From NCBI RefSeq assembly GCF_050920415.1, contig NZ_CP169309.1: 64,000 bases of DNA; one strand, 5' to 3'. Shown here piece after piece: positions 51,801 through 54,800 of the stretch. The position numbers were made by a program. The DNA comes from Escherichia coli. Its GTDB lineage: Bacteria; Pseudomonadota; Gammaproteobacteria; Enterobacterales; Enterobacteriaceae. The stretch's first letter is position 1; each line of letters opens with the position of its first letter.

Positions 51801-54800
51801 ATTAATGGCGTTACGGCGTGCCGGAAGGTTGAACACGTCGGCAAAAATCTGCATAAACAGATCGCTGTTCGAACCACCGCCAGTAATGATCACATGTTTC
51901 GCAAAGTGATTCATTTCATGACACATATTGTCGTAATTGTTCTTCAGCGTCAGCGCCACGCTTTCCAGTATCGAACGATAAATCCATGCGTAATCCATGC
52001 TGGAATCAAAGCCGATCATAATCCCGCGTTTGTAGGGTTCCCACGGGTTGGTCAGCCAGTCCAGCACCGTCATCAGACCATTACAGCCAGGCGGCACACA
52101 ACAAGCTTTTTTGTTGAGCAAATCTTCCGGTGAAAGATCCTGCGCCCTGGCATCCTGAATTAACGACTCGCCTAACATGTCGCGTAGCCAGCTCACCGTC
52201 CACATGCCTTTGCGAATACCGTAACCTTCATACAGCAAGGTTTGCGGAATAGAAGACATAATCGGCCAGTACGCTACCGGATCTTTCGGCAGTGCTTTGC
52301 CGTTCATCATCAGCGCGATGTAGGTACCAAGAGAAATTACCGCAGTTTCATCATCCAGTAACCCGGCTCCCAGTGCTTCTACCGGTTTATCACTGGTGGT
52401 ACAAACAACCGGCAGCCCAGCCGGGAAATGTGTCGCCAGCGCGGCTTGTGGTGTGATATGCCCAAGAACAGTGCCCGGCATTTGCACATCAAAAAGCATC
52501 TGTCGGGGAATATTAAACTTCTCCATTACCGCGGTATCTTCGCTCCATGCCCAGGTCTTATAATCCACCGGCCACTGACCAAAATAGTTGGCGATATTGT
52601 CTTTAAACTCGCCGGTTAAACGGTGTGTCAGATAACCTGAAAAAGAGGTGACATATGCCACATCAGGATTGGTGTGCTCGTAGGGACGTGTTACGCGTGC
52701 ATCCTGCCAGCTAATCAACGGCGCAGCTGGCGTGCCATCGGCTTTCAATAACGCACGGCAGCAACGGATAGATCCCAGACCAATGCCGACAATATCTTCT
52801 TTATTCCCGGCAAACTGGCTCATCAAATCGTGACCGGCAAAACATAATGATGCCCATAAATCGTCATCAGGATGTTCTGCGGTATCGGCATCTGGCGTGC
52901 GCATCGGCTGCAATAAGCCTTTGCCTTCGCATACCACATTACCTTCCAGATCGTACATCACCACTTTTGTGCTCTGACTTCCGCCATCAATCCCTATGAT
53001 GTATTTTTTCGACATGATTTTTCTCCTGTAATTTTCTGGACTTACTTGTTGCTAGCCATTGCGGGGGCGCTATCAGCAGTACGAATTTTTTGGAACAGCA
53101 AAAAGGTAAAGACGATCACCATGGCAAGCGCCGCCATGCCCATCAGCCACATATTGCGGTAGGCTTCTGCCGCGGGCAGGGTGTCTTGCCAGTGGCCGAT
53201 AATTGGGTAAACGAAGACATCCGGCAGAAATCCAATCACCGAACAAATACCTACCGTGGTGCCCATAATGTAAGACGGTGTTCTCGCTTCGCCAGGGCAG
53301 GCCCAGTACAGCCCGCGTGAGGCGTAACAGGTGAATCCCAGAAGTAAAATCAGACCAATCCCCATCGCGACCGATTGCGGGTTAGAGTTCGTGATGAGCA
53401 GGGCAGTTAACGCCAGCAGGCCGAGTACGGAAAGGATTTGGATCACGCGGGTAGGGGATTTCACTTTGCTGTAGGTGGTGATAATGCCACCAAGTGGGCC
53501 GCACAGTGCGCGGAAGATTTTGTTGATCACAATCCCCATGTAGCTCGCCGCCACCAGCGACATGCCGTACATTTCGGTCAGATAGTTGGTGGAGTAACTC
53601 AGAATGGCGTAGATGGTGAAGACGCCAAAAATCACCATGCTGCAGTACCATGTGGTGCTGATGCGCAAAACGGCAAGGATGTCGCTAAGCTGGAATGACT
53701 GTTTTTCTTCGTTATTGGCATTGCGCAGGTTGTTGTTATCGCTAACAAAAAACCAGCACAGAATCCCCAATAAAATGTAGACCACACTATAGATGATAAT
53801 GACCGTTTTCAGGCTGGCGCTGTCATCCGGTGCAAAGCGAGAAAAGACCCACATGGTAAACACCGCCAGCGACATTACACCGACGCCGCGCAGCCCTTCC
53901 ATCCAGCCCATAATTTTCCCCTGCTCGCTATGATCGCCAAGCAACGATGCGGCTTTAATCGACACCGACCACAGCATTAAAATCGTCGTTATCGCAAAGG
54001 CGACCTGAATACAGAGCATTACCCACAGCGGTGGATACGTTGCCATTAACAGACCCAGCAATCCGGTAATGATCATCGCGGAAGTAATCATTTTGCGGTG
54101 TGAAAATTTATCGGCAATAACGCCGCTGGGGGCATAAAGAATAATAGCCGCAATACCAAAGGTACTCATTATTAAACCTATCTCGGTATTGCTGAATCCC
54201 ATAAATTTCGCCATGGGAATTTGATAAATATAACGTAAATAAGCCAGGTCGAAACTAACGCCGCCGCTAAAACTAATTATCGCGAGGGTTATCCAACGGC
54301 GATATGAGTTGTGTTGCATATCGTATTCCCATTTGTAATAGACAAAAAAAAGAGAAAAGTAAGCCGCCCTTTCAGGTGGATTACTTTTCTCAGGTCTCTA
54401 GTAATTGCAGTAAGAAATAACATGGAAAGCAGTGGTGTTGTGTGAGAGTAATCACGCTTCTGCTTTTTAAAATTATTTGACAATTCGAATATCACACTGT
54501 GATTACGATCACATTAGCACTTATTCCCTTATGATAAAAATTATCTCCAGTTACCAGAGATAATGAGAAAGGTAACTTCCCTCTCGCGGGGGAAGTTACC
54601 TTTCTTTTTTTTTGCCTTACGGAAATTGGAGCTAACTATGTCAATCGAATCTCTCAATGCGTTCTCAATGGATTTTTTCTCCCTGAAAGGTAAAACCGCA
54701 ATTGTTACCGGCGGGAATAGCGGTTTAGGCCAGGCATTTGCCATGGCGCTGGCAAAAGCAGGCGCAAATATCTTTATTCCAAGTTTCGTTAAAGATAATG

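What the first reader, a model, noticed from the sequence alone, without database searches (positions are those of the whole stretch)
54498..54513. Perfect CRP consensus site in the divergent yqcE / ygcW promoter region
tgtgattacgatcaca matches TGTGA-N6-TCACA exactly and is embedded in a longer palindrome (atcacactgtgat). Its position between divergent transporter/kinase genes and the oxidoreductase/ETF genes suggests catabolite control of this uncharacterised cluster.
Basis: partly seen in the sequence, partly recalled or inferred. Interest (0 to 1): 0.3.

Follow-up and report, generated by a model that had tools for sequence, protein, structure and literature searches.

The report
Known CRP site, overlooked antiterminator leaders
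The perfect CRP site between E. coli yqcE and ygcW is real and already published, but it is one of two CRP sites driving divergent promoters, and each transcript starts with a conserved, uncatalogued terminator/antiterminator RNA that is probably read by the cluster's own GlpP-like protein YgcP.

Summary
TGTGATTACGATCACA sits at 54498-54513, the only exact TGTGA-N6-TCACA in the window, in the yqcE/ygcW divergent region of E. coli.

The site was predicted in 2007. It lies at a CRP ChIP-seq peak (2015). yqcE-ygcE is listed as a validated Crp-activated operon (2021). A 2026 preprint estimates a Kd of about 1.7 nM.

The surroundings appear to be undescribed:
- **Second CRP site.** A one-mismatch site lies at 54441-54456. 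Each site is centred 41.5 bp upstream of its own predicted start, behind an extended -10 box. All 110 gammaproteobacterial copies keep this layout.
- **Leader RNA.** Both transcripts begin with the same ~65-nt element: a 5' box, an AGAG...GAGAAAAG tract, a strong terminator hairpin and a U-run. The box pairs with the terminator's 5' arm, and compensatory changes support this alternative antiterminator stem.
- **Link to ygcP.** The element occurs in 74 of 81 ygcP-type loci across several phyla, it is absent from Rfam, and it matches two orphan short RNAs (ecr2774, ecr2775).

The likely logic is an AND gate: CRP starts transcription, and inducer-bound YgcP is needed for read-through. The YgcP step is inferred, not shown.

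The parts
54498..54513 (.). CRP site 1, a perfect consensus (TGTGATTACGATCACA), centre 54505.5. Assigned to the ygcW promoter at about -41.5.
   Evidence: Exact and unique in the window. Published ChIP-seq, Kd estimate and prediction. Spacing to the leader box is conserved in all ygcW-type promoters.
54441..54456 (.). CRP site 2, one mismatch (TGTGAGAGTAATCACG; CGTGATTACTCTCACA on the minus strand), centre 54448.5. Assigned to the yqcE promoter at about -41.5.
   Evidence: Every yqcE-type promoter in gammaproteobacteria has a site with at most 2 mismatches at the same spacing. I found no explicit report of this second site.
54532..54540 (+). Extended -10 element of the ygcW promoter (TGaTAAAAA). 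The predicted start is at about 54547.
   Evidence: TGnTAnnnn is conserved 7 nt upstream of the transcript start in the aligned promoters. On K-12 the equivalent predicted start agrees within about 1 nt with the 5' end of ecr2774, using a coordinate offset taken from memory.
54414..54422 (-). Extended -10 element of the yqcE promoter (TGtTATTTC on the minus strand). The predicted start is at about 54407.
   Evidence: Conserved CaTGtTAtTt motif. The two published 5' ends are 139 nt apart, against 140 predicted.
54548..54616 (+). ygcW leader element: 5' box AGUUACC (54549-54555), AGAG (54556-54559), GAGAAAGGUAAC (54565-54576), terminator stem-loop 54565-54606, U-run 54605-54613.
   Evidence: Covariance model 73.7 bits, E 7e-15. 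A 19-bp hairpin followed by T9. Folding energies -30.6 kcal/mol for the terminator and -6.7 for the antiterminator. Covariation. Matches the 73-nt transcript ecr2774.
54342..54407 (-). yqcE leader element: 5' box AAUUACU (54406-54400), AGAG (54399-54396), GAGAAAAGUAAU (54391-54380), terminator stem-loop 54391-54352, U-run 54351-54344.
   Evidence: Covariance model 75.2 bits, E 3e-15. Folding energies -20.5 kcal/mol for the terminator and -1.4 for the antiterminator. Matches the 63-nt transcript ecr2775, which ends in the T-run.
60139..60714 (-). ygcP, the GlpP-family antiterminator protein and the proposed trans-acting factor.
   Evidence: PF04309 over its full length, E 2e-62. [quoted passage not shown] Co-occurs with the leader element in both directions.
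54638..55423 (+). ygcW (SDR oxidoreductase), the first gene downstream of the plus-strand leader.
   Evidence: In 61 elements the downstream gene is a ygcW orthologue.
53042..54319 (-). yqcE (MFS transporter), the first gene downstream of the minus-strand leader, followed by the kinase gene ygcE (51537-53015).
   Evidence: In 54 elements the downstream gene is a yqcE orthologue.

Best explanation
The perfect site is a genuine, high-affinity CRP site. It acts as the class II activator site (centre about -41.5) of the ygcW promoter. A second site with one mismatch, 57 bp away, does the same job for the divergent yqcE promoter. Both promoters have an extended -10 box and no -35 box. Each transcript begins, within 2-3 nt of its start, with a conserved element of about 65 nt. 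By default this element folds into a strong intrinsic terminator and yields a short dead-end RNA. A 7-nt box at the 5' end can instead pair with the 5' arm of the terminator. That antiterminator stem is too weak to form unaided, so read-through needs a factor that stabilises it. The most likely factor is YgcP, the GlpP-family antiterminator encoded in the same cluster, bound to an inducer that is probably a phosphorylated product of the kinase YgcE. YgcP would recognise the invariant AGAG...GAGAAAAG tract. Expression of the cluster would then require both cAMP-CRP and the inducer. Shown by published experiments: CRP binding, Crp activation of yqcE-ygcE, and the existence of the two short transcripts. 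Shown here by comparison: conserved spacing, two mutually exclusive helices with covariation, and co-occurrence with ygcP. Inferred only: that YgcP is the binding factor, what its ligand is, and that CRP activates ygcW.
For: CRP binding: a ChIP-seq peak with this exact 16-mer, a Kd of 1.7 nM, and yqcE-ygcE listed as a validated Crp-activated operon. One site per promoter: all 110 gammaproteobacterial elements have a CRP-type 16-mer with at most 2 mismatches centred 41-44 nt upstream of the 5' box; this occurs at 0.2% of random positions and in 0 of 28 non-gamma elements. On K-12 each site centre lies 41.5 bp from its predicted start. Start sites and termination in vivo: Romero et al. Table S5 lists a 73-nt and a 63-nt transcript on opposite strands with 5' ends 139 nt apart, against 140 predicted; the 63-nt RNA ends in the T-run. 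Element specificity: it is found in 74 of 81 ygcP-type loci and only twice in the 64-kb window; the covariance model gives 75 and 74 bits and finds nothing else in the window. Antiterminator: 94% of cells pair, against 15-55% when the partner column is slid; 4 of 7 pairs show compensatory changes (G-C 86 / A-U 36 with 1 unpaired; U-A 95 / C-G 20; A-U 118 / G-C 5). Terminator: 13 pairs, 10 with compensatory changes, and column 29 co-varies with both column 8 and column 72. Energetics: median -24.4 kcal/mol for the terminator against -4.5 for the antiterminator. The AGAG tract lies outside both helices yet is at least 90% conserved, which suggests recognition by a protein. Link to YgcP: PF04309, E 2e-62; in the reverse test, 75 of 80 metagenome loci retrieved by the motif alone are flanked by ygc genes, and 23 of 23 with enough DNA contain ygcP. 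The Bacillus glpD leader, a known GlpP target, has the same layout, and reviews state that GlpP binds the antiterminator.
Against: There is no direct evidence that YgcP binds this RNA or that any ligand controls it. The co-occurrence data come from loci chosen through ygcP, or are dominated by E. coli-like contigs, so they do not exclude a different factor or a direct RNA sensor. The sequence profile does not detect the Bacillus glpD leader (E 0.12), so the link to characterised GlpP targets is architectural only. CRP dependence in vivo is reported only for yqcE-ygcE, not for ygcW. I found no report that CRP occupies the second site. Start sites are inferred from promoter geometry and one RNA-seq table. 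The absolute match to that table depends on a coordinate offset between MG1655 genome versions that I recalled and did not verify. The 3' end of ecr2774 lies about 6 nt past the U-run. The northern probe printed for ecr2775 does not match this locus. Sequences in the alignment are related, so covariation counts overstate the number of independent events.
Confidence: 0.7

Rival explanations
1. The short transcripts are stand-alone, CRP-activated small RNAs (ecr2774, ecr2775) that act in trans on other mRNAs. The hairpins are simply their terminators.
For: Romero et al. catalogued both as candidate sRNAs that were absent from six databases. Each has its own promoter and terminator. They accumulate to detectable levels.
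Against: Each lies on the same strand as an operon, 25-35 nt upstream of its start codon, and that operon has no other conserved promoter. The element precedes ygcW, ygcU or yqcE orthologues in every phylum examined. The 5' box co-varies with the terminator arm, which an ordinary sRNA terminator does not need. The two roles could coexist.
Confidence: 0.1
2. The leader senses a small molecule directly, as a riboswitch, and YgcP has a different role.
For: The sequence between the box and the arm is highly conserved. No protein-RNA contact has been shown.
Against: Only about 25 nt lie outside the terminator, which is too little for a typical aptamer. The antiterminator stem is weak. The element always occurs with a member of a protein family whose characterised member acts on just such leaders. 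No Rfam family matches.
Confidence: 0.08
3. CRP represses ygcW, or a single site serves both promoters. The perfect site overlaps a constitutive sigma-70 promoter (TTGACA-16-TGTGAT), so CRP binding would block it, and the second site would be irrelevant.
For: Shimada et al. 2014 list TTGACA-16-TGTGAT as a candidate constitutive ygcW promoter and flag H-NS binding in this region. TTGACA is present at 54477-54482.
Against: TTGACA is present in only 2 of 55 distinct ygcW-type promoters. The extended -10 box and the -41.5 spacing are conserved in all of them. The published 5' ends fit the downstream starts, not a start near 54510. The second site is conserved at class II spacing in every yqcE-type promoter.
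Confidence: 0.07
4. The match is a chance occurrence with no function.
For: Eight of 100 shuffles of the window give at least one exact match.
Against: Published in-vivo and in-vitro CRP binding. The TGTGA half-site is present in 54 of 55 distinct orthologous promoters while the spacer and flanks vary.
Confidence: 0.01

Closest known systems
Class II CRP-dependent promoters with an extended -10 box (galP1 type; from established knowledge of CRP promoter classes)
   Same: A CRP site centred near -41.5 replaces the -35 element and is combined with a TGn extended -10 box. CRP binding and Crp activation are documented for this region.
   Different: Two such promoters sit back to back, 140 bp apart, each with its own site. 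Each feeds directly into a leader terminator, so CRP alone should give mainly short abortive transcripts.
Bacillus subtilis GlpP and the glpD, glpFK and glpTQ leader terminators
   Same: The regulator belongs to PF04309. There is an intrinsic terminator in the 5' UTR. An upstream box is complementary to the 5' arm of the terminator, with a purine-rich GAGA tract between them. A catabolite-control layer sits on top (CcpA in Bacillus, CRP here).
   Different: The regulon differs: an SDR, an FAD oxidase, ETF proteins, MFS transporters and an FGGY kinase, rather than glycerol uptake and G3P dehydrogenase. The RNA sequence is not detectably similar (E 0.12). The host is Gram-negative. The ligand is unknown and need not be glycerol-3-phosphate. 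Nothing has been tested experimentally.
BglG/LicT-type antitermination at RAT sequences (E. coli bgl operon)
   Same: It works in the same way: a protein stabilises a weak antiterminator hairpin that overlaps a strong leader terminator.
   Different: The protein family is unrelated (CAT-PRD domains against a PF04309 barrel). No control by PTS phosphorylation is expected. The RNA motif is different.
ecr2774 and ecr2775, candidate sRNAs of Romero et al. 2014
   Same: Same locus, same strands and same sizes (73 and 63 nt). They are almost certainly the same molecules as the terminated leaders.
   Different: They were catalogued as potential sRNAs with no function or structure assigned. Here they are read as attenuation products.

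Membership tests
CRP binding site / class II CRP-dependent promoter | A palindromic site matching TGTGA-N6-TCACA | tested here: met
   10 of 10 half-site positions match at 54498-54513 and 9 of 10 at 54441-54456.
CRP binding site / class II CRP-dependent promoter | CRP occupies the site in vivo or in vitro | not testable with these tools
   Published data meet this for site 1: ChIP-seq, Footprint-seq Kd 1.7 nM, and EMSA-based validation of the yqcE-ygcE promoter. I found no data that resolve site 2.
CRP binding site / class II CRP-dependent promoter | Site centre near -41.5 relative to the transcription start | tested here: met
   On K-12 each centre is 41.5 bp from the start predicted from the extended -10 box. 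The published RNA-seq 5' ends are 139 nt apart against 140 predicted. The spacing is conserved in 110 of 110 gammaproteobacterial promoters. The starts are not mapped at single-nucleotide certainty.
CRP binding site / class II CRP-dependent promoter | Transcription depends on CRP and cAMP | not testable with these tools
   Reported for yqcE-ygcE. Not reported for ygcW.
GlpP-type (PF04309) antitermination system | A PF04309 protein is encoded with the regulated genes | tested here: met
   YgcP matches over its full length, E 2e-62. The closest solved structure is 3KTS.
GlpP-type (PF04309) antitermination system | An intrinsic terminator lies in the 5' leader of the target operons | tested here: met
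   Hairpins of 19 bp and about 16 bp are followed by T9 and T8. Short transcripts of matching size are seen in vivo.
GlpP-type (PF04309) antitermination system | An alternative antiterminator structure overlaps the terminator | tested here: met
   A 7-bp helix between the 5' box and the 5' arm is 94% paired, with compensatory changes at 4 of 7 pairs, while slid controls give 15-55%. The same arm columns also co-vary with the 3' arm.
GlpP-type (PF04309) antitermination system | The RNA target resembles characterised GlpP targets | tested here: inconclusive
   The order of parts matches the B. subtilis glpD 5' UTR, but the sequence profile does not detect that UTR (E 0.12).
GlpP-type (PF04309) antitermination system | The protein binds the leader RNA in a ligand-dependent way and causes read-through | not testable with these tools
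   This is inferred only, from two-way co-occurrence and from the conserved unpaired AGAG tract.
Trans-acting small RNA | An independent transcript with its own promoter and terminator | tested here: met
   An attenuated leader also meets this feature.
Trans-acting small RNA | Base-pairing targets elsewhere, or association with an RNA chaperone | not tested
   No data were found.
Riboswitch | A known aptamer family, or a conserved multi-helix ligand pocket | tested here: not met
   No Rfam family matches in E. coli or in seven distant loci. Only about 25 nt lie upstream of the terminator arm.

The most novel reading that the evidence does not exclude
The ~65-nt leader is an uncatalogued, widely distributed class of cis-regulatory RNA. 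It is the target of a YgcP subfamily of GlpP antiterminators, and it has moved between phyla (Clostridia, Bacilli, Spirochaetes, Actinobacteria, Anaerolineae, Gammaproteobacteria) together with its protein and a conserved regulon of SDR, FAD-oxidase, ETF and transporter genes. In gammaproteobacteria it was placed behind paired class II CRP promoters, giving a two-input AND gate. Its inducer would be a phosphorylated product of the YgcE kinase other than glycerol-3-phosphate. This would make it the first GlpP-type antitermination system in E. coli and would offer a way to identify the substrate of an orphan catabolic cluster.
Probability: 0.5. Interest if true: 0.55.

Novelty: new member of a known kind. 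Interest (0 to 1): 0.42.

Why it matters
The CRP site itself adds nothing new. It is one more confirmed member of a very large regulon.

The value lies around it. The ygc genes form one of the remaining uncharacterised catabolic clusters of E. coli, present in about 93% of complete genomes. CRP-only models do not explain why the cluster stays silent.

If both operons are gated by YgcP-dependent antitermination, three things follow:
- A leader-reporter fusion becomes a direct screen for the unknown inducer and substrate.
- Two orphan "sRNAs" gain an explanation.
- GlpP-type control, so far studied experimentally only in Bacillus as far as I could find, would extend to Proteobacteria with a defined, covariation-supported RNA target that could be added to RNA family databases.

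Tried and rejected
- **Rfam.** A permissive search of the intergenic region and a gathering-threshold search of seven distant loci found no family covering the element.
- **Ribosome-binding-site sequestration.** Folding about 105 nt of each leader predicted an outer helix that sequesters the ribosome-binding site. I rejected it because its 5' strand lies upstream of the inferred start, inside the -10 box, and so would not be transcribed.
- **Longer palindrome and TTGACA box.** Each is present in only 2 of 55 distinct ygcW-type promoters, so I treat them as lineage-specific.
- **Homology to the Bacillus glpD leader.** The sequence profile does not detect it (E 0.12). I keep only the resemblance in architecture.
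- **Northern-blot support for ecr2775.** The probe printed in Table S9 does not match this locus. I rely on the RNA-seq coordinates only.
- **Supplementary data.** Those of Li et al. 2021 and of the Footprint-seq preprint are not held. I could not see which site Li et al. assigned, whether ygcW responded to crp deletion, or whether site 2 was footprinted.
- **Papers on the cluster.** Searches on ygcP, the other ygc genes and PF04309 found no functional study.
- **Extra copies.** None were found in the window. E. coli genomes have a median of two matching places.
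Full report
**1. The observation**

The sequence TGTGATTACGATCACA is at window 54498-54513. It is the only exact TGTGA-N6-TCACA in the 64-kb window. Shuffled sequence gives 0.08 matches on average, and 8 of 100 shuffles give at least one, so the match alone is not decisive.

The window is E. coli chromosome. The site lies in the 318-bp gap between yqcE (53042-54319, minus strand; an MFS transporter, followed by the FGGY kinase gene ygcE) and ygcW (54638-55423, plus strand; an SDR oxidoreductase). ygcW is followed by ygcU (FAD oxidase), ygcS (MFS transporter) and ygcR and ygcQ (ETF subunits). The region is present in 5067 of 5426 complete E. coli genomes.

**2.

- PhyloScan ranked yqcE/ygcW second among its CRP predictions in 2007 (PMC1794230).
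- Haycocks et al. 2015 list exactly this 16-mer at a CRP ChIP-seq peak assigned to ygcW/yqcE in ETEC H10407 (PMC4287617).
- Li et al. 2021 place yqcE-ygcE in their table of novel and validated Crp-activated operons. Their approach combined a crp-deletion transcriptome with EMSA (PMC8085971).
- A 2026 Footprint-seq preprint estimates a Kd of 1.7 nM for this site. It counts the site as novel only relative to its own reference list of 308 sites (PMC12871828).

CRP occupancy and catabolite control of at least the yqcE side are therefore known.

**3. There are two CRP sites, one per promoter**

A second site with one mismatch, TGTGAGAGTAATCACG, lies at 54441-54456, 57 bp from the first, centre to centre.

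Each site is followed at a fixed distance by an extended -10 box: TGaTAAAAA at 54532-54540 on the plus strand, and TGtTATTTC at 54422-54414 on the minus strand. Neither promoter has a -35 box. Placing each start 7 nt after its hexamer gives 54547 (plus strand) and 54407 (minus strand). Each is 41.5 bp from the centre of its own CRP site, which is class II geometry. The K-12 sequence gives the same numbers.

Comparative data support this. I fetched 80 loci around YgcP homologues. In them, all 110 gammaproteobacterial promoters of this type have a CRP-like 16-mer with at most 2 mismatches, centred 41-44 nt upstream of the conserved leader box. The same test succeeds at 0.2% of random positions and in none of 28 promoters from other phyla, which have ordinary TATAAT boxes.

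The TGTGA half-site is present in 54 of 55 distinct ygcW-type promoters while the spacer and flanks vary.

**4. Both leaders carry the same RNA element**

Terminator-like hairpins with T-runs lie between each promoter and its start codon. That is an odd place for terminators, since the genes diverge. The two hairpins are related in sequence.

BLAST of the intergenic region against the 80 loci showed that these two segments remain recognisable after the rest of the region has diverged beyond detection. An iterated sequence profile found the element in 74 of 81 loci held at that point (the 80 fetched loci plus the E. coli reference locus). There are 141 non-overlapping copies: usually two per enterobacterial locus, and one to three in Clostridia, Spirochaetes, Actinobacteria and an Anaerolineae MAG. 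In the 64-kb window only the two leaders hit.

A covariance model scores the two leaders at 75.2 and 73.7 bits (E about 1e-15). It finds nothing else in the window apart from the weaker antisense images of the same hairpins. It also recovers two copies in a Bacillus locus that the sequence profile had missed.

The consensus is AGUUACU-AGAG-N3-5-GAGAAAAGUAAC, then a variable apical stem, then UUGCUUUUCUC, then U7-9. The element starts 2-3 nt after the predicted transcription start.

**5. Two mutually exclusive structures**

The 5' box is complementary to the start of the terminator's 5' arm.
- **Antiterminator.** On a 123-sequence alignment this 7-bp helix is paired in 94% of cells, against 15-55% when the partner column is slid. 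Four of the seven pairs show compensatory changes: G-C 86 / A-U 36 with one unpaired cell, U-A 95 / C-G 20, and A-U 118 / G-C 5.
- **Terminator.** This helix has 13 predicted pairs, 10 of them with compensatory changes. The same arm columns co-vary with both partners; for example, column 29 pairs with column 8 and with column 72.
- **Energies.** The terminator is far more stable: median -24.4 kcal/mol against -4.5 for the antiterminator. In E. coli the values are -30.6 against -6.7 for ygcW and -20.5 against -1.4 for yqcE.

The default outcome should therefore be termination, and read-through should need a stabilising factor. The AGAG tract lies outside both helices yet is at least 90% conserved, which points to recognition by a protein.

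The sequences in the alignment are related, so these counts overstate the number of independent events. The slid-partner controls and the three-way covariation are the more robust part of the evidence.

**6. Independent experimental support**

Romero et al. 2014 (PMC4681348), Table S5, list two short transcripts in this intergenic region that were in none of six databases. ecr2774 is 73 nt, on the ygcW strand. ecr2775 is 63 nt, on the yqcE strand, and is marked as detected by northern blot.

Their 5' ends are 139 nt apart, and my predicted starts are 140 apart. Using an offset of about 1976-1977 bp between MG1655 genome versions, which I recalled and did not verify, the absolute positions agree within 1 nt. 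The 63-nt RNA ends inside the T8 run. The 73-nt RNA ends about 6 nt beyond the T9 run, which I cannot explain.

The probe sequence printed for ecr2775 does not match this locus, so I do not rely on the northern blot.

These transcripts are what prematurely terminated leaders would look like under non-inducing conditions.

**7. The likely trans-acting factor**

The cluster encodes YgcP (60139-60714, minus strand), a full-length member of the glycerol-3-phosphate-responsive antiterminator family PF04309 (E 2e-62). Its closest solved structure is 3KTS. In Bacillus subtilis, GlpP bound to glycerol-3-phosphate relieves leader terminators of glpD, glpFK and glpTQ, and reviews say it binds the antiterminator.

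The glpD 5' UTR (PMC9604022, Table S4) has the same order of parts: a box GGUC complementary to GACC in the terminator arm, with GAGAUGAGGAGAGA between them. The sequence profile does not detect it, however (E 0.12). This is resemblance, not demonstrated homology.

The association runs both ways. Starting from ygcP, 74 of 81 loci carry the element. Starting from the RNA motif alone in metagenomes, 75 of 80 loci are flanked by ygc genes. All 23 loci with enough DNA to reach the ygcP position contain ygcP, and three further pattern matches are chance hits with no hairpin. The metagenome set is dominated by E. coli-like contigs, so it adds little independent weight.

The genes downstream of the element are orthologues of ygcW (61 cases), yqcE (54), ygcU (11) or a kinase (1). 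The Clostridial YgcW and YgcU are still about 70-80% identical to the E. coli proteins. This suggests that regulator, RNA target and regulon move together between phyla.

**8. The model and its status**

CRP-cAMP starts transcription at both divergent promoters. Each transcript terminates after about 65 nt unless YgcP, bound to an inducer that is probably made by YgcE, stabilises the antiterminator.
- **Shown by others:** CRP binding, Crp activation of yqcE-ygcE, and the short transcripts.
- **Shown here by comparison:** one conserved CRP site per promoter at class II spacing, two alternative helices with covariation, and specificity and co-occurrence of the element.
- **Inferred:** YgcP binding, the identity of the ligand, and CRP activation of ygcW. 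I also infer that the weaker yqcE terminator leaks more read-through, which would explain why only yqcE-ygcE was flagged as Crp-dependent.

**9. Rivals**

- The short RNAs could also act in trans.
- The leader could sense a metabolite directly.
- CRP could repress an overlapping promoter.

The first two are not excluded, but the cis position, the covariation and the invariable companion protein make them less likely. The third is contradicted by the lack of conservation of the TTGACA box.

**10. Novelty**

The CRP site is already known. I found no description of the second site, of the leader element, or of YgcP function:
- Literature searches on ygcP, the other ygc genes and PF04309 returned no functional study.
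- Rfam has no matching family.
- RefSeq annotates nothing under the element in about 5000 genomes.

The leader element is best filed as a new, untested member of the known GlpP-type antitermination kind, placed behind ordinary class II CRP promoters.

Noticed in passing
window 14078-14093: TGTGATAACGATCGCA is a CRP-type site with one mismatch. Its reverse complement is the motif listed at the (fucU)/fucR CRP ChIP-seq peak in Haycocks et al. 2015.
   Followed up: partly
window 19248-19263 and 19288-19303: Two more CRP-type sites with one mismatch each, 40 bp apart (TATGACGGCGGTCACA and TGTGACTACCATCACT). I did not examine the neighbouring genes.
   Followed up: no
L060, L062, L065, L066, L069, L075 (Clostridia), L061 (Anaerolineae MAG): Orthologues of YgcW and YgcU are about 70-80% identical to the E. 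coli proteins and carry the same leader RNA. This suggests that the whole cluster, with its regulator and RNA target, has been transferred between phyla.
   Followed up: partly
Romero et al. 2014, Table S9 (probe ORL43) against window 54300-54660: The northern probe printed for ecr2775(u+) has no match in the window with up to 3 mismatches. The table may be mislabelled or garbled in the stored text.
   Followed up: yes
L082 92-107 (K-12), equivalent to window about 54605-54620: The reported 3' end of ecr2774 lies about 6 nt beyond the T9 run, whereas ecr2775 ends within its T8 run. This is unexplained.
   Followed up: partly
L040-L043 (Ewingella, Rahnella and an Enterobacterales MAG): The divergent region is compressed. 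The same CRP site is 43 nt from one leader box and about 80 nt from the other, so the two promoters lie much closer together than in E. coli.
   Followed up: no
window about 45750-48950 (L001 3753-6701): In this strain, three TPM-domain genes between eno and queE are annotated as pseudogenes: one with an internal stop, one frameshifted and one partial.
   Followed up: no
L067 2876-2934 and 10708-10764 (Bacillus sp. DNRA2): The covariance model finds two copies of the element that the sequence profile missed. One lies directly downstream of the glpP homologue, behind a TATAAT box.
   Followed up: partly
window 54320-54637: Shimada et al. 2014 flag this intergenic region as H-NS-bound in their genomic SELEX table. 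H-NS silencing could be a third layer of control.
   Followed up: no
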